Source: an uncultured Ignavibacteria bacterium | Lineage (GTDB): Bacteria; Zixibacteria; MSB-5A5; SM1-73 | Length of the DNA: 64,000 nt | NCBI GenBank assembly: GCA_964580215.1 | Contig: CAZOJT010000001.1 | Coordinates: 126,475 to 190,474, forward strand | Reading direction: 5' to 3' | Shown here: positions 11,032 through 45,724 of the stretch, piece by piece | How the letters are laid out: each line of letters begins with the position of its first letter | Position numbering within the stretch: position 1 is the stretch's first letter | The notes under the pieces: generated by a model | The model's input: only the letters and a program-made list of their open reading frames with translations | Database searches by the model: none | What the model was told of the DNA's origin: nothing | Translations under genes and position numbers: made by a program

Positions 11032-14000
11032 CTATCCCACCAGACTGAGCAATTTTCTGTAGTCTTTGGGATTTCCATGCTTGATTTTTCTATGTAAATT
11101 TAAGGTTTCTGGATCAGGCTCAATATCCAGGTATCTTTTCAGACCTTCTTCACATACCTTGAATTGCCGAATGGCGGCGGTGCGACTTCCCAAAAGAGCG
11201 TAGGAGAGCATTATCATGCGGTGCGCCTCCTCATCCGTGGGATCGGCTAAAAGCAAAGACTGAAGGTAACGGATACAGTTTTCATAATCAGCTTTTTCCC
11301 AGGCTGATTGAGCCAGCCTCCGGAACACGGCGTTATACTTTTCCCTGTATTCCTCCCGGGCTTCCTCCGCCCAGCGTTCATAAAAATCTTCTAACAGGTT
11401 GGAGGAATAAAGCTCTGCCGCCTTCTGGTATTCTGAGTCCACCAGATGAAACTTCTCCTCCTTCTGGAAGCGAAGGGCATTGTCCAGGCAGGACAAAAAT
11501 TCACCAACATCAGACCATATCTTGCCTTCCCAGTTTAATCGATAGACCCCGGCCTGGAAAGTGAGATATTCTCCTTTTTCCTTCTCGATGGCTTTTCTGA
11601 GATGAGAAAGGGTTACGTGGAAGGTGTTGCCCAGACTTTGAGGATCAATTTCCGGCCAGATGGCATCTACCAGTTTGTCCCGGGTAACTCCAATCTTTTT
11701 TGTATCCTTCACCACCAGATAAGCTAAAATCTGCTTAGCTTTGACCGACCCCCACTCCTTTGCCAAAATCTCTTCGGTCTCATACGGTCGATATACCCTG
11801 AGCCTTCCAAAGCAGTAGATGCGTAGGTGATCCATATAGTCGCCGCTTATCCCCACCGGTGCCAAAGATTCCGGATATTCCTCAGCCTTTCTTTTTACCT
11901 TCATGTGGACGGTCTTCTGTTCGATTTCCTTTAAGATAGAACCTAATTCAGATTCCAGACGAATCTCCTTTATTCTCTCTTTTAATAAGATCAGTCTTTT
12001 TTCAAAATCAAGCCCGGTTAATATCTTTATAGCCTGGTTTAAGGTATCAATACTTCTTTGAAATAGAACCTCCTTTTTCTTGGGTTCTTCTGAGATCGCC
12101 ATCTGTGCCAGACAGAGACCGAGGCTTTCCAGTGTTTGCGCTAACTGGAAAGGAGAGCCCAGCTCCTCAAAGAGGATTTTGCTCTCCTGTAACAGTTTTT
12201 CAGCGTTCTCCCAATCCTTAAGGGAGAGGTAGCATTTCCCCAAAGTTCTTCTCGCCATTCCCATGCTTAATTTGGAAGACTGCTTGGTGGCCAAATCCTG
12301 AGCTTCTTTAACCAAAGCAATGCCCTTTTCATGGTGGTTAAGTTTGAAATGGATCTCTCCAAGATTCGTTTGAATGATAGGCAAAACATCTTTGGCTCCT
12401 ATCTTCTGGCAGATGGTAAAACTCCGGCTCATATAATCCAGCGCTTTGTCTGGTTGTCCCTGGGATAGAAAAGTTACCCCTAGGTTGTCGAGAGCCGATA
12501 CCATTCCCCGCCGGTCCCCATATTGTTCTCTGATCTTTAAACTCTTCTCAAGAAAACCGAGCGCCTTCTCCCATTCCCCTCTGTCCTTATACAATACTCC
12601 CAGATTATTATAGATGATCCCTTTCCATGAGAGATTGCCCATTTCCTGAGCCAAATTTAATCCTTTATAGTAATAATCCTCAGCTTTGTCATACTGCCCC
12701 AGATTGAGATGAATCACTCCCAGATTGATCTTTAAAGCGGACAGCCTTGACTTATCCTGAACCTTCTGCTGTATTTCCAGACACCGATTAAAATGCTCAA
12801 TGGCCTTCTCATATTTCCCCTGACTGTGAGCCACCCAACCAAGATTGTTGTAGCTCCGCTCTATCAGGGTTAGATGTTTTCTTTTCCGGGAAAGTTCGAT
12901 CCCCTTCTTTGACCAGTGGATACACTTCTGGTGTTCCCCCTTCATAACATAAGTTAGACCCAGGGAATTACAGATGGTAATGTACTCGGTGAGCTCAGGC
13001 TCAGAGGAGGTGTCCTTCAACTTCTTTAAGGCACGTTCATAATAAGAGATAGCTTCAGTGTAATCACTTATGGAATGATAAACATAACCGATCTTTCGAT
13101 ACATCTGGGCTTCCTTGAGATGGTCTAAAAGTTTTTGGTCCTCTCCCAACTTCAAAGCCTCCTGGTAAGAACGTATGGCGGAATCCGATTTACCAACTCT
13201 GACCTGAACCTCACCCAGTAACTCAAAAAGTTTGAGTAATTTCGCATATTTCTCTTTGGAGACAGGGACATTTTTCAAAAGCTCCAGCGCTTGAAGAAAG
13301 TATTGTTCTGCTTTGCCTTCCGAGTATTGTTTTTGCATCTTCTGCCCTGCCTGAATCAAATAATTTATGCTTTTTTTCAAAGAGGTTCGATCTTTTTTTC
13401 CCCGACTGAAATGATAAGCCAAATCCTCCACCTTTTGAGATAGTTTAACCTTTCCTTTGTCCTTCTCCAGAATGGTTGCTACCTTTTGATGGGTCTTCTC
13501 TCTAAATTCCGGGTTAAGAGTCTGATAGATGTGAAGGCGCACTATATGATGGGTAAAACGATAAATTCCCTTTTCTTTTTCCTTATCTGAAATCTTACCA
13601 ATCAGGTTTTTTACAATTAGATCCCCCACGATCCTTCTTAACTGGGTGGGGGAAATGGCCAAAAGTTTTTGCAAGGTTTGCAGATCGAATCTATCACCTA
13701 TTACCGTGGTAAGCGACAGCACCTTTTGGGACAACTCATCCAGCCCCTTTAGTCTCCGTTCGATCACACTCTGGAGGGTGGCAGGCTCTAAGATCCTTTC
13801 TAAGTATTCCTCTTTGATCTCCCAGCGGGATTCCACCGGATCGAAAAAGAAAGCATCCTGCTCTATGCCTGACCTTAGGGTCTCGTTTATGAATAAAGGA
13901 TTGCCTGCGGTATAATCAAGAAGCCACTTAAAGAAGTTTTCGGTCAATTTCTGATTAAAGAAGGCTTCCACCAGATTCTTCACCTCTTCTGGAGCCAGAC

Positions 14001-14676
14001 TGGAAAGCTTCAGCCGATGAACTAACCTCTGATCTTCCAGATTGCCAATCCACCCTTCGGTGAAAGAGCCCGCTTGGGCGCCCCGGCTGGTGGCGATCAC
14101 CAGGATAGGAGACTTCCTGAAATTGGTGCTCAGATATCTCAAAAGCTCCAGGGTGTCCGGCTCCAACCAGTGGAGGTCCTCAATGTCTAAGATCAGAGGA
14201 TAACGATGGGAAAGCTTTGAAAAGAAAAGCAAAAGCGTGTCGTAAAATCTCTGCTTCTCCTCCTTGGGTGAAAGGGGAGGGGTGGTGACGCGGGAAATAT
14301 CAAAGGGAATGTATTCCTCAATTTCGGGAACTATCTTTTCCAGAAGGGCTATGGTCAAATTATCTAAAAGAGGCGCCAAGTATCGGGTGTCGTAGTTGAT
14401 AGAGGAGAAGAAGTTGCGAAGCATCTCGGAGAAAAGCCGGTAAGGTGAGATCTCCTTGTGATACCCGTGTCCCCGGATCACCATAGCTCCCCGGGATGTT
14501 ATCCCATCCAGAAACTGTTCCACCAATCTGGTTTTTCCTATTCCGGTCTCCCCCTCGATCAAAACGAAACTTCCCCGGTTCTCCAGAATGGAATCAAAGA
14601 ATCCTTCCAGAACTTTCAGCTCATTTTCCCTTCCCACGAAGGGTTCGCTCTTATTTTTGGAGAACTGTATATTCAC
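11032..14676 (-). CDS. Large STAND-like regulator: N-terminal AAA/P-loop ATPase, central TPR array, C-terminal OmpR-type wHTH + BTAD (SARP-like) domain
   Basis: Walker A GETGIGKTRL and Walker B LILDIEDLHW. Multiple TPR_12-like repeats (YNNLG.., LGQYDKAEDYY..). The C-terminus has LRIYCFGRLRV...KAKQILAYLV...LRKAIE (wHTH) and EEAHRMIMLSYALLGSRTAAIRQFKVCEEGLKRYLDIEP (BTAD). Confidence 0.8.
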   Translation of the reverse strand: MNIQFSKNKSEPFVGRENELKVLEGFFDSILENRGSFVLIEGETGIGKTRLVEQFLDGITSRGAMVIRGHGYHKEISPYRLFSEMLRNFFSSINYDTRYLAPLLDNLTIALLEKIVPEIEEYIPFDISRVTTPPLSPKEEKQRFYDTLLLFFSKLSHRYPLILDIEDLHWLEPDTLELLRYLSTNFRKSPILVIATSRGAQAGSFTEGWIGNLEDQRLVHRLKLSSLAPEEVKNLVEAFFNQKLTENFFKWLLDYTAGNPLFINETLRSGIEQDAFFFDPVESRWEIKEEYLERILEPATLQSVIERRLKGLDELSQKVLSLTTVIGDRFDLQTLQKLLAISPTQLRRIVGDLIVKNLIGKISDKEKEKGIYRFTHHIVRLHIYQTLNPEFREKTHQKVATILEKDKGKVKLSQKVEDLAYHFSRGKKDRTSLKKSINYLIQAGQKMQKQYSEGKAEQYFLQALELLKNVPVSKEKYAKLLKLFELLGEVQVRVGKSDSAIRSYQEALKLGEDQKLLDHLKEAQMYRKIGYVYHSISDYTEAISYYERALKKLKDTSSEPELTEYITICNSLGLTYVMKGEHQKCIHWSKKGIELSRKRKHLTLIERSYNNLGWVAHSQGKYEKAIEHFNRCLEIQQKVQDKSRLSALKINLGVIHLNLGQYDKAEDYYYKGLNLAQEMGNLSWKGIIYNNLGVLYKDRGEWEKALGFLEKSLKIREQYGDRRGMVSALDNLGVTFLSQGQPDKALDYMSRSFTICQKIGAKDVLPIIQTNLGEIHFKLNHHEKGIALVKEAQDLATKQSSKLSMGMARRTLGKCYLSLKDWENAEKLLQESKILFEELGSPFQLAQTLESLGLCLAQMAISEEPKKKEVLFQRSIDTLNQAIKILTGLDFEKRLILLKERIKEIRLESELGSILKEIEQKTVHMKVKRKAEEYPESLAPVGISGDYMDHLRIYCFGRLRVYRPYETEEILAKEWGSVKAKQILAYLVVKDTKKIGVTRDKLVDAIWPEIDPQSLGNTFHVTLSHLRKAIEKEKGEYLTFQAGVYRLNWEGKIWSDVGEFLSCLDNALRFQKEEKFHLVDSEYQKAAELYSSNLLEDFYERWAEEAREEYREKYNAVFRRLAQSAWEKADYENCIRYLQSLLLADPTDEEAHRMIMLSYALLGSRTAAIRQFKVCEEGLKRYLDIEPDPETLNLHRKIKHGNPKDYRKLLSLVG

Positions 14677-25457: not shown

Positions 25458-28400
25458 ATGAGTTTAAAGATATCCCAGCTAAAATCGAAGTGGAATAAAG
25501 AGAAGAACTTCTACAAAACACAAGAAGTCGGTTCCGGCGTTCAGATATTTGTCAAAGATGTTTTGAAATCGGAGGAGATATTCAATCTCAAGGTCGGATT
25601 CGCCTCTACCCCCTTGGAACGGCGCAGAAATGAGTTTGTCGAGGAGAAAAAAACAAAAGACTCAAGAAGAGCAGACATCGTCATTTATGTTTCCCCGGAT
25701 ATTACCATCCCTGTAGAAGTTGAAAAATATCAAAATATCGAAGCGGGAATAGGGCAACTCTTACAATACCAAGCAGATTTAGATAAGAAGTATGGTATCC
25801 TAACCGATGGTTATACTTGGCGATTTTACAATAACAATATTTTCCGAAAATTCACACTTAACCAAATCTTGGATGAAACAGAAGAATTCTTAGAATTTTG
25901 GAAAGAATATACTAAGCCGGAATTCTATTACCTTTCTTTCTTCGAATCCCCGGGTCAACTCACACTTCTCAAAGAAATAGAAAAATTACTTGTTGAGGAC
26001 AACAGGCTGATTTTCTTCGAAGACATTAGAAAACTCATTCGGGGCTTTAAGCATAAATTAAATATAGAGGGATACTTTGAGGGGCTAGAAAAGAAAGAAA
26101 GAGAGAAAAAAGCAGTTGAGATTACCTATGCTTACATTATTCAGTTTATTCTGTACAAGACCTTAGTGGATAATGACTTTGATGATTTTAAAAAAGAATT
26201 TTCAAAAAAACAGAATGGCATATATGAATGTCTGAAAGTGAAACAATTCGGGAAAATCTTGGGTATAATTAACGGTATTTCTAACGAGATATCAAAAAAT
26301 ATTTATCGCCCGTTTGCCAAAGAACAAGAATTTATAACAAACAAAATTTTGGAGCTTTTTAATAAGCCAAAAAATGAATTACACGAAGTCTCCCCGTGGT
26401 TAGACATATTTGTCTTTATCAAAAAGTATAATTTCGCAAGTGTAAAAAATGAAATCTTCGGATACATTTATGAGAATTATCTAAAAGAGCTTTATGAAGA
26501 TAAAAAGAAGGGGCAATATTTTACTGACCCGGCCGTGGTCAACTTTATGCTTCGGCAAGTCGGCTATACCCCAGAAAAGTTAAGAGAAAAACTCAGAAAC
26601 GACAAAGAAAGTATTTCCTTAATAGACCCTGCTTGTGGCAGTGGCACTTTTCTTTATAGTGCAACCAATGAGCTTATTCGTGCAGTGCCTGATGGGTCAG
26701 AGGAATCATCAAAAACAATTGAAGAATTAGTGGACAATAACATCTTTGGTTTGGATATTGCAGAGTTTCCACTTTATTTAGCAGAGATGAACATTTTAAT
26801 GCGGATGTTACCGCTTATTATCACCGAGAAATACAACAATCCAATTGATAAAAAAATTAAAGTTTTCTTAACTAAAGATAGTGTTGCAGAGTTTATGGAC
26901 GCAGGCATAGAAAATACCATCAACGATATTGATGTTAGGCGGGGGCAATTTCCACTTTTTACACGAAAGCTTGAGCTTGGATACAAAAGTTATGTGAGAG
27001 ATGAAGGCGATTTGTCGGAGATGAAGCAAAGTATGCGTCCCCCTCGCCGACGTTTTGATTTTGTTATTGGCAATCCGCCGTATGTTGGATATAACGAGTG
27101 TTCTAAGCAGGACGTCTTGGTTTTTAATTTATTGAAAAAAGGCGAGGTTAGTCTCGGTGACATTTATAGTGTTAATCTACACAGTATCCCCAATACTCGA
27201 AAAAAAAGACCGCCGAAACCAAACCTATATGCTTTTTTTATTGCAACTGGTTTAGTATTGCTCAAAGACAACGGAAAACTTTGTTACATTATCCCACAGA
27301 CAATTCTAACTGCAGGTGATTTGGATGTATTACGCTATCATTTGGCAAAATTTACGACTATTGAGAAAATCATTACTTTCAGTGGTAAGATGTTTATTGG
27401 TCGTGGTATTAAACAGAATAAGCCAGTAGCTACTTCAAGTCTTATTTTTATTGTTTCAAGAAAAGTACCTTCCAGATTGCATCAAGTTGAAATTGTCAAT
27501 TATGAAAAGTCTGGGGATAGCATAGAGGATACTTTACAGAATATCTTGGACGGTAAGAGAATTGATAGGAAGAAAATCTTACAGAGTAAACTTCTCCAAA
27601 ATGTAGCAAATTGGAATTTTGTTAAGCAGGGTAAAGCATTTTGGGGTTTTTGTGAGGCGTACAAGAGAAACACAGAAAATATGGGAATTTATTACAATCA
27701 TGCGATGGCTGAGCATAAATTCAAAAGTAAATTTTATTTCGACATCGGATATAATATAAACGAGAAAATTATGCTCAAACATCCTGAGGGCAAAGGCCTT
27801 ATTTTTAGCTACCCCGATTTAAAAGACAATTTCTCGACAATTAAAGAATTCAGAGGGTACTGGCCAAACATTAGAAGTGGTACCTCGAAGTATATCATTA
27901 AGTTATTGAAGGCAAATCAAGGTTACAATTTATTGGATAGTCCACACAAAATTATTTGGTCTTACGCCAATCCTAAAAAATTTCACTTTACTTCGACTCC
28001 GGTAATTTGGGCTCGTAATCAAATATGTGCTATCGGTAGCAAAAATAAAAAGGAGCTTCTTTACCTTTTTGCAATATTAAACTCCAAAGTCACTAACGTT
28101 ATTCTTAATTCTCATTTAAAAAGTGAACAGGAAAAAGACTTATTAGTTTCTATTACAGCAGTTAAAGAATTTGTCCGTGTTCCCCGAATCTCGGACCACA
28201 CTCAATTTATCAAAGATGAAATCATCAAACGGACAGAGGAGATGCTTGAATTGGAAGAAAGGACACTTTCGGATTTTGTTGATTTTTCAGGCATTCTATT
28301 GCAAAAGTTCAAGGACATAAAAGTGAAGAAAAATTACCTTGTCGCAATAGATGGAGGCAAAAAAACGAAACTCAAAATCACGGGAGACCCTGCGCTTGTT

Positions 28401-28649
28401 GAAAAGGCTTTGCTCAGGGAATTCGAGGAGTCTGAATTACCGCTACAAGCTCGGAGTATTAGACTCTCTGCTCTTCGCAAGCTACCAGTTATTGACCTTC
28501 AAAAGCAAGCACAGCTAAGGAAATACATTGATGACTTAGTTTTTGCTCTGTATTTCAAAGTGAATTTGGAGAAAATAGGTTTTGAAAAGGCTAAATTAAT
28601 TGAAAAAAAGTGCGAGGAAAATAAATTTTACAAAACCATCCAATCTTAG
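25458..28649 (+). CDS. Single-polypeptide Type IIG/IIL-like restriction-modification enzyme (N-terminal nuclease-like domain + gamma-class N6-adenine methyltransferase + C-terminal putative target-recognition region)
   Basis: MTase motifs in gamma order: X GQYFTDPAVVNFMLRQV, I LIDPACGSGTFLY, IV DFVIGNPPYVGY. The N-terminus has RADIVIYVSPDITIPVEVEKY (PD..ExK-like). 1063 aa and markedly AT-rich versus its flanks. No hsdR/hsdS or BREX partners nearby. Confidence 0.65.
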   Translation: MSLKISQLKSKWNKEKNFYKTQEVGSGVQIFVKDVLKSEEIFNLKVGFASTPLERRRNEFVEEKKTKDSRRADIVIYVSPDITIPVEVEKYQNIEAGIGQLLQYQADLDKKYGILTDGYTWRFYNNNIFRKFTLNQILDETEEFLEFWKEYTKPEFYYLSFFESPGQLTLLKEIEKLLVEDNRLIFFEDIRKLIRGFKHKLNIEGYFEGLEKKEREKKAVEITYAYIIQFILYKTLVDNDFDDFKKEFSKKQNGIYECLKVKQFGKILGIINGISNEISKNIYRPFAKEQEFITNKILELFNKPKNELHEVSPWLDIFVFIKKYNFASVKNEIFGYIYENYLKELYEDKKKGQYFTDPAVVNFMLRQVGYTPEKLREKLRNDKESISLIDPACGSGTFLYSATNELIRAVPDGSEESSKTIEELVDNNIFGLDIAEFPLYLAEMNILMRMLPLIITEKYNNPIDKKIKVFLTKDSVAEFMDAGIENTINDIDVRRGQFPLFTRKLELGYKSYVRDEGDLSEMKQSMRPPRRRFDFVIGNPPYVGYNECSKQDVLVFNLLKKGEVSLGDIYSVNLHSIPNTRKKRPPKPNLYAFFIATGLVLLKDNGKLCYIIPQTILTAGDLDVLRYHLAKFTTIEKIITFSGKMFIGRGIKQNKPVATSSLIFIVSRKVPSRLHQVEIVNYEKSGDSIEDTLQNILDGKRIDRKKILQSKLLQNVANWNFVKQGKAFWGFCEAYKRNTENMGIYYNHAMAEHKFKSKFYFDIGYNINEKIMLKHPEGKGLIFSYPDLKDNFSTIKEFRGYWPNIRSGTSKYIIKLLKANQGYNLLDSPHKIIWSYANPKKFHFTSTPVIWARNQICAIGSKNKKELLYLFAILNSKVTNVILNSHLKSEQEKDLLVSITAVKEFVRVPRISDHTQFIKDEIIKRTEEMLELEERTLSDFVDFSGILLQKFKDIKVKKNYLVAIDGGKKTKLKITGDPALVEKALLREFEESELPLQARSIRLSALRKLPVIDLQKQAQLRKYIDDLVFALYFKVNLEKIGFEKAKLIEKKCEENKFYKTIQS

Positions 28650-42607: not shown

Positions 42608-42856
42608 TCAATAAACGCTGACTACTTTTTTGCTCTTCCCCTTCGGTTCAAATTTGACCACTCCGTCCATCAGGGCAAAAAGGGTATCATCCTTTCCCTT
42701 GCCCACGTTCAGGCCCGGGTGTATTTTGGTTCCCCTCTGTCGCACCAGAATGGTGCCAGCTAAAATTGCCTCACCCGCAAATCTTTTCACACCCAGCCTC
42801 TGCCCGTGCGAATCCCTTCCGTTGCGTGAACTTCCTACTCCCTTTTTATGTGCCAT
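42608..42856 (-). CDS. rpmA: 50S ribosomal protein L27
   Basis: [29 protein letters not shown]...[24 protein letters not shown] is the canonical L27 sequence. No rplU lies adjacent. Confidence 0.95.
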
Positions 42857-43008: not shown

Positions 43009-43302
43009 CTAAAAAATATCCTTCAATGTTTTTGCCCCATGACAGATAGCAACAATTTCGACAATACTTTCTTTAAGCCTGTAAACTATCCGATAGTTCT
43101 GATAAATCTTTTCCCTTAAATTCTCATCACCATATTCTGGAACAATACGTCCTACTTTGGGAAATCGAGGTATATCTTCAACCATAGTAATTATCTTCCT
43201 AGCAAAAAGACGAGCATAATATTCAGAATCTTTGGCGACGTAGTTGCATATCTCTTCAAGATTGGAAAGAGCGCGGGGAGACCACTTTATTTGTTGAGCC
43301 AT
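43009..43302 (-). CDS. RelE/ParE-family type II toxin (intact)
   Basis: 97 aa. IKWSPRALSNLEEI..YVAKDS..YARLF...IPRFPKVGRIVPEYGDENLREKIYQNYRIVYRLKESIVEIVAICHGA. Confidence 0.8.
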   Translation of the reverse strand: MAQQIKWSPRALSNLEEICNYVAKDSEYYARLFARKIITMVEDIPRFPKVGRIVPEYGDENLREKIYQNYRIVYRLKESIVEIVAICHGAKTLKDIF

Positions 43303-43475
43303 TTTGACATTCGCTTTTCTACTTCCTCATGAGAAATTCCTTTGCCTTCATCCAAATCTTTCAATCCTGCGTCCACTTGAAGCCTAAAATACAACTCCGC
43401 CATTATCTCCTCCACAGAAACATCATCAGGAAGATTCTGAATCATTTGAATAACTTGCTCTTTTACTCCTGTCAT
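43287..43475 (-). CDS. Cognate antitoxin (62 aa, addiction-module-component type)
   Basis: Overlaps the toxin start by 16 nt. Conserved NLPDDVSVEEIMAELYFRLQVDAGLKDLDEGKGISHEEVEKRMSKWL. Confidence 0.65.
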   Translation of the reverse strand: MTGVKEQVIQMIQNLPDDVSVEEIMAELYFRLQVDAGLKDLDEGKGISHEEVEKRMSKWLNK

Positions 43476-43593: not shown

Positions 43594-43782
43594 TTACTTT
43601 TCGAGCCATTTTGCCATCCGCTTTTCGACCTCTTCCTGTGTATAAACCCGTCCGTCTTCTGCATCCTTCAAACCACGCTCAATCTTTTGAAGGACATAAA
43701 GATGGTACTGAATATCTTCCAGAGAACAGTCTTCTGGCAGACGGTTGAGTAGATTGGTTACTTCTTGTTTGGGTGTGTGCAT
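43594..43782 (-). CDS. Orphan antitoxin paralogue; only a 16-codon toxin remnant (about 43545-43596) follows
   Basis: MHTPKQEVTNLLNRLPEDCSLEDIQYHLYVLQKIERGLKDAEDGRVYTQEEVEKRMAKWLEK. Downstream, ATGGCTCGAAAAGTAATAAAGATTGACATCCCAAATCTTATCGCACTTTTTTAG translates to MARKVIKIDIPNLIALF-stop. The flank resembles the 3' flank of the intact toxin. Confidence 0.55.
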   Translation of the reverse strand: MHTPKQEVTNLLNRLPEDCSLEDIQYHLYVLQKIERGLKDAEDGRVYTQEEVEKRMAKWLEK

Positions 43783-44089
43783 ATCTGCTTCCTGATTTAA
43801 TCATACTAAATTTGACCGCGAATTTTGTATAACGTCTTGCGTGTTTGCGAAGTGCCGAAGGCATTTGGGTGAGCGAAACGAAACGCAAATTCGCTGTTAT
43901 CTGCCGTTGCGGATAATACCTTATTTTGCATTGTTTACTCCATTCTTTGCCTGCAATGAGCAGATAACGTTCCCGGGGTAAACGACGTTTTGCTGTAGCG
44001 TTAGCGGAGGCAAAATGTGGCAAAGCCCAAGCGGCCGACAGGGAGCGCAGCGTTTTACCCCGTGTTGTGCGAAGTGCCAGACATATGTA

Positions 44090-45166
44090 TTATTCAACCA
44101 TTCTTTTAACAAATTCATCAAAAGATACGCACCTGTTTGGTGGAATCATTGCTGCTATCCAATTTTTCCCTCGACCTTTGTTTTTAGTACCATCCTTTAG
44201 TAAAGGTTTTTGCAATTTGATTGGTTTATTTAAGAAAAAATATGTAAATGTTTCATTTGAGTCAGGATCCATTTTGATTCCCTTCAACCACCTGGAAACA
44301 AGATCAGAATCTCCATCAGCAAATAATTTGAGGTCATCCATAAATATTTCTGCGTCTTTTGGATTAAATGAAAGTATACCAAGTACTTTTGATAAGTAGG
44401 AGATGCCTTCTCCCTCAGGTTGATTAGCATTTCTTGTAAAGTAGGGTGAAAAGTACAAGGGACTTCCAAATATTACATTTCTTCGATATATAAAATATTC
44501 ACGATATTTTTTCATTTCTTTTTCATCGCTTAGATCTTGAACTAGTATTTCTTTTTGATCACGCATTTTATATCCCCTTATAATAAACTTGATAAAATCT
44601 GAGATTATAGGTTTTTCTAAAAATTCTTTAGAATCATAAAGATTCGCAATTTCTATCCACCCAATATTTCTAATGATAACACTATCATATAGTTGTTTTT
44701 GGTAATCATGGATTTGCGTTATGAAGCAAATGCATTTTTGAGGTTCATCATCAAAACAGCTTAGATACTGAGTTTTTTGTTCTGATATTTTATTTGTTTT
44801 TACTTTACTTTCAATTATTAAATGAAATTTGTTTTCTTGTTTAATTTCTATATCTGTTCTGCCTTCGGAATGTTTTTTCTCAATTAAAATTTCTGTTGCT
44901 TTATAATTGTTCTCTGTGTTTTTTATTGAAATACCAATAAATTGCAAGAATCTATATAGTGCTATCGGTTCTTTTGAAATGGTATAAGCGAATGCTTTTG
45001 AAAGACCATTTTCATCGTAACCGAGTAAATCATGTACAGTTAATGGTGTCTCAAGATACCCATGTTTTTTAATAATCATATTTTCCTCTTGTCTGGCATT
45101 TCGCACAACTCGTTCATATCCAAACTTCGTTTCTTGTTCAAATTTGGAATAATATGCGAAGTTCAT
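44090..45166 (-). CDS. Hypothetical protein with PD-(D/E)xK-nuclease-like core (candidate defense/abortive-infection nuclease), strongly AT-rich
   Basis: 358 aa. Residues about 97-122, HSEGRTDIEIKQENKFHLIIESKVKT, give a D..(14 aa)..E-S-K arrangement. No other recognisable domain. It is embedded in the toxin-antitoxin island. Confidence 0.4.
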   Translation of the reverse strand: MNFAYYSKFEQETKFGYERVVRNARQEENMIIKKHGYLETPLTVHDLLGYDENGLSKAFAYTISKEPIALYRFLQFIGISIKNTENNYKATEILIEKKHSEGRTDIEIKQENKFHLIIESKVKTNKISEQKTQYLSCFDDEPQKCICFITQIHDYQKQLYDSVIIRNIGWIEIANLYDSKEFLEKPIISDFIKFIIRGYKMRDQKEILVQDLSDEKEMKKYREYFIYRRNVIFGSPLYFSPYFTRNANQPEGEGISYLSKVLGILSFNPKDAEIFMDDLKLFADGDSDLVSRWLKGIKMDPDSNETFTYFFLNKPIKLQKPLLKDGTKNKGRGKNWIAAMIPPNRCVSFDEFVKRMVE

Positions 45167-45239: not shown

Positions 45240-45524
45240 TTAAGCGACGTTTCTACGGAAAGTATTTATAGATATCCTTTCTATGCAAAAATCTTGTAAA
45301 GATAATTTTATCATTTACTATTTCAATACCTATTCTATTCTATAATCTCCTGCCCTGATACGATAAAATGTCTTATAACTTTTTAATTTTTCCAAACCTT
45401 TTATTTCTCTTAAACCTTTGGAACTCCTTACTTCATTTATAGCCTTCTTTACCCTCTTTAATAAACTTTTATCTTTGACTTTTCTTAAGTCTTTTTCAAA
45501 ACTCTCTTCAAAATAGATTTTCAC
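45240..45524 (-). pseudogene. RelE-type mRNA-interferase toxin, frameshifted near the C-terminus
   Basis: The ORF ends ...FYRIRAGDYRIE-stop. The expected continuation GIEIVNDKIIFTRFLHRKDIYKYFP is readable in the next frame after the gaatagaatagg slip. Confidence 0.5.
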
Positions 45525-45526
45525 TT

Positions 45527-45724
45527 TTAACCTAACATCTTCAAAATTCTATCTTCACCCACAAATTTATTTTTTCTCCCTTCCCGGATGGCATTAGCTA
45601 AACCCACCTCCTCTATTACTTCCAATATGATTTCATAGAAGACCTTTCTTTTTTCTTCAATAATTTCAATAATGGCTTCTTTTATAATCCCTTTCAGTTT
45701 TTCATCGCTTATTGATAATTCCAT
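45527..45724 (-). CDS. Putative antitoxin partner of the frameshifted RelE-like toxin
   Basis: 65 aa acidic helical protein ending 2 nt before the toxin ORF. Typical toxin-antitoxin gene arrangement. Confidence 0.4.
   Translation of the reverse strand: MELSISDEKLKGIIKEAIIEIIEEKRKVFYEIILEVIEEVGLANAIREGRKNKFVGEDRILKMLG

What the first reader, a model, noticed from the sequence alone, without database searches (positions are those of the whole stretch)
44090..45166. AT-rich orphan gene with a PD-(D/E)xK nuclease-like core inside the toxin-antitoxin island - candidate uncharacterised defense effector
The 358-aa protein has no domain I recognise except a segment, HSEGRTDIEIKQENKFHLIIESKVKT (residues about 97-122), that fits the D-(x10-20)-(D/E)-x-K catalytic signature of restriction-endonuclease-fold enzymes. 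It is followed by about 230 residues of unknown function. Its strongly low GC contrasts with the host genes, and it lies among addiction modules. Together these make a single-gene abortive-infection or anti-phage nuclease plausible.
Basis: inference. Interest (0 to 1): 0.6.

Follow-up and report, generated by a model that had tools for sequence, protein, structure and literature searches.

The report
Cassette-borne nuclease with modified-base reader
The gene encodes a DNA-cutting enzyme fused to a domain shaped like known readers of chemically modified bases, so it is most likely an uncharacterised anti-phage restriction enzyme that cuts modified DNA and spreads between bacteria as a small integron-type gene cassette.

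The parts
44090..45079 (-). Corrected CDS, 329 aa (stop codon 44090-44092): two-domain nuclease-reader protein
   Evidence: ORF. Start fixed by homologue lengths and coverage, by the public 329-aa gene calls and by the RBS.
45080..45166 (-). Spurious 5' extension of the 358-aa ORF (29 codons). It actually holds the 5' untranslated leader, the RBS and the R'-type box.
   Evidence: Almost none of the 150 listed representative-cluster matches aligns here. The 5' arm of the inverted repeat lies inside it.
45084..45088 (-). Shine-Dalgarno GAGGA, 5 nt upstream of the ATG at 45079
   Evidence: Read directly from the sequence.
44585..45079 (-). N-terminal PD-(D/E)xK nuclease domain (about residues 1-165), Pfam PDDEXK_4
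44804..44854 (-). Catalytic motif D76-x13-E90-x-K92 (GRTDIE...IIESKV). It is followed by invariant Q101 and Y105, and E23 and E67 are also invariant.
   Evidence: These residues are invariant in the 35-sequence alignment A1. In the model D76 lies on strand 73-81 and E90 at the end of strand 85-91, with K92 one residue beyond it.
44093..44557 (-). C-terminal PUA-superfamily (ASCH/YTH/EVE-like) reader domain, about residues 175-329
45090..45112 (-). 5' arm of the CDS-bracketing inverted repeat. It contains the R'-type box GTTGTGC (45103-45109), the putative cassette 5' boundary.
   Evidence: Inverted repeat I1, 21 of 23 complementary. 2 matches in the window against 0 in 100 shuffles. Chain rule positive. 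A similar arm is present in L009.
44061..44083 (-). 3' arm of the inverted repeat, starting 6 nt after the stop codon. It contains the R''-type box GCACAAC (44064-44070).
43962..44070 (-). Candidate attC-like site of the nuclease cassette: GCACAAC, an imperfect stem GGGGTAAAACG / CGT(CG)TTTACCCC, then GTTATCT
   Evidence: Sequence reading. The stem appears in the DNA fold, but z is only -1.06. Weak hits of the L006-trained attC model end at 43962 (10.6 and 7.9 bits, E 0.23 and 0.91). Inconclusive.
43827..43903 (-). Second attC-like site. CAGATAAC is the exact complement of the preceding GTTATCTG; it is followed by the stem GCGAATTTGCG / CGCAAACACGC and then GTTATAC. It contains a degenerate third copy of the repeat arm (43840-43856).
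   Evidence: The attC-model hit at 43827-43902 (-) scores 9.4 bits, E 0.42. Weak.
45253..45724 (-). Neighbouring TA module: intact RelB-like antitoxin (45527-45724) and a ParE/RelE-like toxin disrupted by a 5-nt AGAAT duplication (45330-45524, with the remainder running to about 45253). It shares the low GC of the nuclease gene.
   Evidence: Pfam, frame analysis, GC profile.

Best explanation
The gene encodes a stand-alone, two-domain enzyme. An N-terminal PD-(D/E)xK (PDDEXK_4) metal-dependent nuclease is fused to a C-terminal PUA-superfamily domain of the ASCH/YTH/EVE type. The most likely mechanism is that of a modification-dependent (type IV-like) restriction endonuclease. The reader domain docks on DNA carrying a modified base (identity unknown), and the tethered nuclease cuts nearby. 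This destroys incoming phage or foreign DNA that carries the mark, while the host's own DNA lacks it. No methyltransferase is needed, so a single gene is a complete defence module. This fits its dissemination as a one-gene integron-type cassette, which is how it appears to have reached this toxin-antitoxin-rich spot between clpC and rpmA.

Shown here: the domain folds, the conserved catalytic residues, the lack of a conserved partner, the patchy distribution, the defence-island contexts, and the cassette boundaries.

Inferred, not shown: DNA (rather than RNA) as substrate, dependence on a modification, which modification, and anti-phage activity.
For: - **Autonomy.** No neighbour family is shared by more than 5 of 39 loci, and none in the Planctomycete clade. 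The window cassette's boundaries hug a single CDS.
- **Precedent.** PUA-nuclease fusions without a nearby methyltransferase are experimentally modification-dependent (Lutz 2019, PMC6765204). A variety of EVE-PD(D/E)XK type IV enzymes has been predicted (Bell 2020, PMC7641849).
- **Defence context.** Neighbours include type I R-M, Shedu SduA, GmrSD-HNH and an EcoRI-type methylase, type III-like R-M, SNF2 and GmrSD, and Mrr. In four loci the gene sits in a DUF1156-DUF499-SNF2/NOV_C (MADS-like) cluster, where Bell 2020 found stand-alone EVE readers.
- **Distribution.** About 42 full-length copies occur in 185,579 species genomes, across at least 10 phyla, at 41-63% identity. There are none in the phage, plasmid or viral collections.
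- **Mobility.** Chain-rule boundaries occur in 9 of 46 family genes, against 13 of 725 other ORFs and 1 of 725 shuffled flanks. Homologue P0042 lies in an integron with an IntI-like integrase (46.5% identity to IntI1, E 3e-93) and textbook attC sites.
Against: - There is no biochemical or genetic test of any kind.
- The closest structural match, ZmASCH, is described as a single-strand RNA ribonuclease (PMC5615036), and YTH domains mostly read RNA.
- I could not inspect the model's coordinates, so a base-flipping pocket or aromatic cage was not verified.
- PADLOC has no model for the protein.
- Many family loci lie among ordinary housekeeping genes.
- The host itself carries a type IIG N6-adenine methylase, so a generic m6A-dependent nuclease would be self-toxic. 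This narrows the possible targets but does not identify one.
Confidence: 0.55

Rival explanations
1. It is an RNA-directed toxin or abortive-infection effector. The PUA-like domain reads a modified or structured RNA (as ASCH and YTH domains often do), and the PD-(D/E)xK domain, or the ASCH-like domain itself, cleaves RNA and shuts down the infected cell.
Against: Every PD-(D/E)xK structural neighbour is a DNA endonuclease or a dual DNA/RNA enzyme from a defence system. Prokaryotic reader-nuclease fusions tested so far act on DNA (PMC6765204, PMC7897488). TRIP4 ASCH domains bound to dsDNA are also among the hits. No antitoxin-like partner is conserved.
Confidence: 0.12
2. It is a ligand-triggered abortive-infection nuclease. 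The PUA-like domain binds a free modified nucleotide produced during infection and switches on an otherwise silent, non-specific nuclease.
For: A 2026 preprint reports a PUA-Calcineurin-HAD defence module activated by m6-dAMP released during phage-induced chromosome degradation (PMC12871103, abstract seen). A stand-alone nuclease without a methyltransferase must be kept silent somehow.
Against: There is no evidence here for oligomerisation or for a small-molecule pocket. The simplest precedent for a PUA-nuclease fusion is direct reading of modified DNA.
Confidence: 0.1
3. It is not autonomous. It serves as an accessory reader-nuclease subunit of larger restriction-like systems (DUF1156 methylase-DUF499-SNF2 MADS-like clusters, or type I R-M), taking the place that a stand-alone EVE protein occupies in archaeal versions.
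For: Four loci (L010, L024, L033, L064) have the gene packed tightly inside DUF1156-DUF499-SNF2/NOV_C clusters. Six loci have type I R-M subunits alongside. Bell 2020 describes the same cluster with stand-alone EVE.
Against: Most loci, including this window, have none of these partners within reach. Nine copies are delimited as single-gene cassettes. The protein carries its own complete catalytic site.
Confidence: 0.1
4. It is a housekeeping DNA-repair or recombination nuclease (NucS/EndoMS-like or RecB-like) that recognises damaged or mismatched bases.
For: NucS/EndoMS and Bax1 appear among the structural hits. Q101-xxx-Y105 resembles the QxxxY motif of RecB/Cas4-type nucleases; that resemblance is from my own knowledge and was not tested here.
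Against: The family is extremely patchy (about 42 of 185,579 species genomes). Identity is high across unrelated phyla, which implies horizontal transfer. GC content is foreign. The contexts are cassette and defence-island.
Confidence: 0.03

Closest known systems
PUA-superfamily/nuclease modification-dependent restriction endonucleases (TspA15I/VcaM4I EVE-HNH; YenY4I PUA-DUF3427-PD-(D/E)xK), Lutz 2019 PMC6765204 and PMC7897488
   Different: No sequence homology is detectable. The nuclease is PDDEXK_4, not HNH. The domain order is reversed: in the Lutz screen all sensors were N-terminal and the nucleases C-terminal.
PvuRts1I/AbaSI family of 5hmC-dependent enzymes (from my own knowledge)
   Same: The order is the same (N-terminal endonuclease, C-terminal reader), the size is similar (about 300 aa), and both are stand-alone genes.
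McrBC (type IV restriction), archaeal McrB N-terminal reader domains plus the McrC nuclease
   Different: McrBC is a two-protein, GTP-dependent AAA+ machine.
ZmASCH (Zymomonas mobilis ASCH protein, PDB 5guq)
   Different: Identity is only 16%. ZmASCH is a single-domain protein reported as a ssRNA ribonuclease (PMC5615036) and has no fused PD-(D/E)xK domain.
Stand-alone EVE proteins in the COG1743 (DUF1156) methylase-DUF499-SNF2-nuclease system, Bell 2020 PMC7641849
   Same: Four family loci place this gene inside the same kind of cluster. PADLOC labels the neighbours mad2 and mad3.
   Different: Most copies, including the window's, occur without that system.
[quoted passage not shown]
   Same: It is a compact defence gene delimited by integron-type recombination boxes. 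One homologue lies in an array with Shedu, GmrSD and TA cassettes next to an IntI integrase.
   Different: I found no sign that this family is among the 13 BRiCs that paper describes, though I did not compare sequences. The window copy has no integrase within 64 kb. Its R'/R'' pairing is extended to 23 bp, far longer than the usual 7-bp core.

Membership tests
PD-(D/E)xK nuclease superfamily (Pfam PDDEXK_4, PF14281) | Profile match above the curated gathering score | tested here: met
   25.7 bits against 22.3. 35 of 35 homologues match, best E 3e-10.
PD-(D/E)xK nuclease superfamily (Pfam PDDEXK_4, PF14281) | Restriction-endonuclease-like core fold, with D on the second core strand and (D/E)xK at the third | tested here: met
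PD-(D/E)xK nuclease superfamily (Pfam PDDEXK_4, PF14281) | Catalytic D / E / K residues conserved across the family | tested here: met
   D76, E90 and K92 are invariant in 35 sequences at 48-73% identity. They are also retained in the Planctomycete clade (TDIE...EAK).
PD-(D/E)xK nuclease superfamily (Pfam PDDEXK_4, PF14281) | Metal-dependent phosphodiester cleavage | not testable with these tools
   Needs purified protein.
PUA superfamily readers (ASCH / EVE / YTH clade) | PUA-like beta-barrel fold with a helix after strand 1 | tested here: met
PUA superfamily readers (ASCH / EVE / YTH clade) | Sequence-profile membership in a named family (Pfam ASCH, EVE, YTH or SRA) | tested here: not met
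   None of 35 members hits any of these models at E<=1. A family profile against PDB sequences finds nothing. I therefore do not file it as an ASCH, EVE or YTH family member, only as PUA-like by fold.
PUA superfamily readers (ASCH / EVE / YTH clade) | Pocket (aromatic cage) that accepts a flipped modified base | not tested
Invariant aromatic residues exist (Y198, Y209, F210, W264, W307), but their geometry is unknown.
Type IV (modification-dependent) restriction endonucleases | A nuclease domain combined with a modification-reader domain | tested here: met
Type IV (modification-dependent) restriction endonucleases | No cognate methyltransferase linked to the nuclease | tested here: met
   There is no recurrent neighbour in 39 + 10 loci. 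No methylase family recurs with it apart from DUF1156 in the MADS-like clusters. Single-gene cassette boundaries are present. The ParB-methylase next to L052 is not recurrent.
Type IV (modification-dependent) restriction endonucleases | Cleavage or restriction requires modified DNA | not testable with these tools
   Needs in vitro digestion of modified and unmodified substrates, and phage assays.
Type IV (modification-dependent) restriction endonucleases | Homology to a catalogued type IV family | tested here: not met
   PADLOC-DB v2: 0 hits. NCBIfam: 0 hits. PDB sequences: 0 hits.
Integron gene cassette | The 5' boundary GTTRRRY-type box is complementary to an RYYYAAC-type box just after the ORF (chain rule) | tested here: met
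   GTTGTGC lies 30 nt upstream of the ATG and GCACAAC 19 nt after the stop. The same rule holds for 9 of 46 family genes against 1 of 725 shuffled flanks, and for every cassette of the L006 integron. The boxes fit GTT/AAC but deviate from the strict RRRY consensus at one position.
Integron gene cassette | A folded attC site (R''-L''...L'-R') downstream of the ORF | tested here: inconclusive
   Hand-called sites lie at 43962-44070 and 43827-43903. DNA folds are no better than shuffles (z -0.44 and -1.06). The L006-trained covariance model gives only weak hits at these positions (7.9-10.6 bits, E 0.2-0.9). Rfam returned nothing.
Integron gene cassette | Association with an integron integrase (IntI) | tested here: not met
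   No IntI-like ORF is found in the 64-kb window, so at best this is a solitary cassette or an attC cluster lacking an integrase. The feature is met for homologue P0042 in L006 (46.5% identity to IntI1 over 329 aa; the IntI1 probe sequence was recalled from memory).
Toxin-antitoxin / abortive-infection toxin | A conserved adjacent antitoxin or immunity gene | tested here: not met
   No conserved neighbour exists. The adjacent TA pairs in the window are separate ParE/RelB modules.

The most novel reading that the evidence does not exclude
The C-terminal domain founds a previously unrecognised branch of the PUA superfamily that reads a DNA mark not covered by known type IV enzymes, for example a hypermodified phage base. 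In addition, the conserved 16-23-bp repeat that brackets the CDS (with the same A·C mismatch and one compensatory change between the window and L009) is a functional extension of the attC base stem, or a 5'-3' mRNA clamp, that controls the mobility or expression of a potentially self-toxic nuclease cassette.
Probability: 0.15. Interest if true: 0.7.

Novelty: new variant of a known kind. Interest (0 to 1): 0.45.

Why it matters
If the prediction holds, this is an uncharacterised, compact (329 aa), single-gene modification-dependent restriction enzyme family. Its reader domain is invisible to current sequence models and defence catalogues. Enzymes of this kind are useful reagents for mapping DNA modifications. 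They also explain why phages diversify their base modifications.

The finding also adds a concrete example, from uncultured environmental phyla, to the recent idea that integron cassettes are a reservoir of phage-defence genes. It shows that a simple "chain-rule" scan of CDS flanks can flag such cassettes even where no integrase is nearby.

None of this overturns current understanding. It extends known principles to a new family.

Tried and rejected
- **Sequence libraries.** PADLOC, NCBIfam, PHROGs and PDB sequence searches gave nothing useful.
- **AFDB50 fold search.** The library was unavailable.
- **Classical R-M rival.** A ParB-fused DPPY methylase lies next to the L052 homologue. I rejected the R-M reading because no neighbour recurs in the Planctomycete clade.
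- **Plain transposon TIRs.** I considered this for the bracketing repeat and rejected it in favour of integron boxes. The repeats begin GTT and end AAC in six of the seven loci with the strongest repeats, and a homologue sits in a genuine integron. I saw no target-site duplication.
- **Rfam.** No hit in 41-47 kb.
- **RNAalifold on ten L006 attC sites.** It gave no consensus structure, because the variable middles misalign and the integrated R boxes are chimeric.
- **attC covariance model (R1).** The model I forced from those sites is array-specific and gives only weak hits elsewhere.
- **Local DNA folds** of the window's intergenic regions are not better than shuffled sequence.
- **Xer/dif-like sites (pdif-module idea).** I considered this only from memory and did not test it.
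- **Phage, plasmid and IMG/VR collections.** No relatives found.
- **Host organism.** I did not identify it. The species-representative genome scan returned no copy more than 63% identical.

Full report
**Observation.** The 358-aa ORF at 44090-45166 (-) exists and its GC content is strikingly low. It is 0.26-0.33 across the gene and the adjacent small TA pair, against 0.44-0.50 in the flanking clpC and fumarate-hydratase genes. The neighbours are indeed addiction modules: three ParE-family toxins and their small antitoxins. Two parts of the description fail.

First, the gene starts at the internal ATG at 45079, giving 329 aa. Homologues are about 330 aa and cover 92% of the query. Almost none of the representative-cluster matches reaches upstream of ORF residue 30. 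GAGGA precedes that ATG. Public gene calls on identical contigs give 329 aa.

Second, it is not an orphan. There are 308 relatives in the 90%-clustered database and 162 clusters at 50% identity, many of them 50-73% identical.

**Mechanistic reading.** A nuclease fused to a PUA-type reader, without a methyltransferase, is the architecture of modification-dependent (type IV) restriction enzymes. Lutz et al. showed modification-dependent cleavage for several PUA-HNH enzymes and one PUA-PD-(D/E)xK enzyme. They argued that the lack of a nearby methylase supports such activity (PMC6765204). Bell et al. predicted many EVE-PD(D/E)XK type IV enzymes (PMC7641849). In the Lutz screen the sensor was always N-terminal.

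I tested autonomy by clustering all neighbour ORFs of 39 full-length loci. The most recurrent neighbour family occurs in only 5 loci. The divergent Planctomycete clade has no recurrent neighbour at all, so the methylase next to L052 is incidental. That clade shares both domains at the profile level (hhalign 99.4% over 266 columns), although BLASTP sees only the nuclease half.

**Context and distribution.** About 42 full-length copies occur among 185,579 species-representative genomes. They are spread over Zixibacteria, Bacteroidota, Spirochaetota, Planctomycetota, Cloacimonadota, Omnitrophota, Desulfobacterota, Nitrospirota, Ignavibacteria, Aminicenantes and Proteobacteria, at 41-63% identity. 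That pattern indicates horizontal transfer. Recognisable defence neighbours are frequent:

- type I R-M;
- Shedu SduA, GmrSD-HNH and an EcoRI-type methylase;
- a type III-like methylase/helicase cluster with GmrSD and an integrase;
- an Mrr-type nuclease immediately upstream;
- AriA/PtuA-like ATPases.

In four loci the gene sits in DUF1156 methylase-DUF499-SNF2/NOV_C clusters (PADLOC mad2 and mad3). This is the system in which Bell et al. found stand-alone EVE readers. Many other loci are flanked by housekeeping genes. No relative was found in the phage, plasmid or IMG/VR collections.

**An unexpected feature: cassette boundaries.** A 23-nt inverted repeat (21 of 23 complementary) has arms at 45090-45112 and 44061-44083. 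It brackets the corrected CDS, with one arm 10 nt before the ATG and the other 6 nt after the stop. The arm occurs nowhere else in the window, and 0 of 100 shuffles give two matches. The Zixibacteria homologue (L009, 63% identical protein) has a similar repeat at the same positions (GTTGTGCGTAATGCCC / GGGCACTACGCACAAC). It shares the same A·C mismatch and shows one compensatory A-T to T-A change. Across the family, 7 of 46 genes have a CDS-hugging inverted repeat scoring >=9, against 9 of 327 control genes (Fisher p = 0.0013). Six of the seven begin GTT and end AAC.

GTTRRRY and RYYYAAC are the core boxes of integron attC sites. A tblastn search with IntI1 (sequence recalled from memory) found a full-length integron integrase in L006 (46.5% identity over 329 aa, E 3e-93). 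It is divergently oriented to a same-strand array that contains the homologue P0042. The intergenic regions of that array are textbook attC sites. They obey the chain rule: each cassette's 5' GTTNNNN box is the reverse complement of the NNNNAAC box after its own ORF, including GTTAGCT | homologue | AGCTAAC.

Applied as an objective test, the chain rule is met by 9 of 46 family genes (including the window copy, GTTGTGC/GCACAAC). It is met by 13 of 725 other ORFs, of which 8 are neighbours in the L006 and L026 arrays, and by 1 of 725 shuffled flanks.

Downstream of the window gene the chain continues: GTTATCTG, then CAGATAAC 60 nt later, then a stem and GTTATAC. However, local folds are not better than shuffles. 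A covariance model trained on L006 attC sites gives only weak hits at those positions (E 0.2-0.9), and no integrase lies within the 64-kb window.

I conclude that the family is frequently carried as single-gene integron cassettes. The window copy is most likely such a cassette, or a relic of one, in a small integrase-less cluster next to TA modules. My confidence in this is about 0.6. The 23-bp extension of the R'/R'' pairing remains unexplained. Defence genes in integron cassettes have recently been described (bioRxiv 10.1101/2024.07.02.601719; PMC12614218).

**Rivals.**
- An RNA-directed toxin. ZmASCH is a ribonuclease and YTH domains read RNA.
- A ligand-triggered abortive nuclease, by analogy with the PUA-Cal-HAD system activated by m6-dAMP (PMC12871103).
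- An accessory subunit of MADS-like or type I systems.
- A repair nuclease.

The first three are not excluded. The last is unlikely, given the distribution and mobility of the family.

**Verdict.** What is there is a conserved but uncharacterised nuclease-reader fusion, best explained as a stand-alone type IV-like restriction enzyme spread as an integron-type cassette. It is a new variant of a known kind. It is of moderate interest because both the principle (reader plus nuclease) and the vehicle (defence cassettes in integrons) are already established, while the family, its cryptic reader domain and its extended bracketing repeat are new and directly testable.

Noticed in passing
window 45253-45524 (-): The ParE/RelE-like toxin next to the nuclease is disrupted by a 5-nt AGAAT duplication (...AGA ATA GAA TAG...). 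Its C-terminus (RIGIEIVNDKIIFTRFLHRKDIYKYFP) continues in another frame. The RelB-like antitoxin at 45527-45724 is intact. This is a decaying TA module.
   Followed up: yes
window 25458-28649 (+): A second low-GC island (GC 0.34-0.39) encodes a 1063-aa type IIG/IIL fused restriction-modification enzyme (Eco57I, N6_Mtase and MmeI_Mtase domains). The host therefore writes site-specific m6A.
   Followed up: partly
window 43594-43782 (-) and 43287-43475 (-): Two paralogous 62-aa antitoxin-like genes. Their 3' ends are 80% identical over 45 nt and their downstream segments are also similar. Only the second is followed by a ParE toxin (43009-43302); the first is an orphan.
   Followed up: partly
window 42608-42856 (-): The ribosomal protein L27 gene (rpmA) sits alone between two TA pairs, with no L21 gene directly upstream. 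This is an unusual setting for a core gene.
   Followed up: no
window 43840-43856 (-): A third, degenerate copy of the repeat arm (GGCACTTCGCAAACACG) lies about 215 nt downstream of the nuclease gene. AAATGCC sits just before it, so both half-arms are back to back, like an 'empty' version of the hairpin that brackets the gene.
   Followed up: partly
L006 1-17011 (ENA ERZ922552 contig, 258,947 nt): A complete chromosomal integron. An IntI-like integrase is followed by a cassette array carrying PIN, an EcoRI-type methylase with GmrSD-HNH, GNAT, Shedu SduA, the family homologue, a methyltransferase, Fic, a group II intron reverse transcriptase, and Phd/ParE and BrnT/BrnA pairs. It is in effect a defence island built from cassettes.
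   Followed up: partly
L051-L059 (Planctomycetota genomes): A divergent clade of the same two-domain family (335-391 aa; hhalign 99.4%). Its reader domain has diverged beyond BLASTP detection (EVWILSI...RPLYLAFRV...TIWHLDxPV). It may read a different mark.
   Followed up: partly
L029 11404-13914 and L047 11420-14032: In two Flavobacteriaceae loci, a small 129-130-aa ORF and an 836-870-aa DUF4132 + DUF7737 protein follow the family gene, next to a type I R-M system and an AAA_21/AAA_15 ATPase. The function of this conserved trio is unknown.
   Followed up: no
window 11032-14676 (-): A 1214-aa AAA_16-TPR-BTAD protein (STAND/MalT-like signal-transduction ATPase with a transcriptional activator domain).
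   Followed up: no
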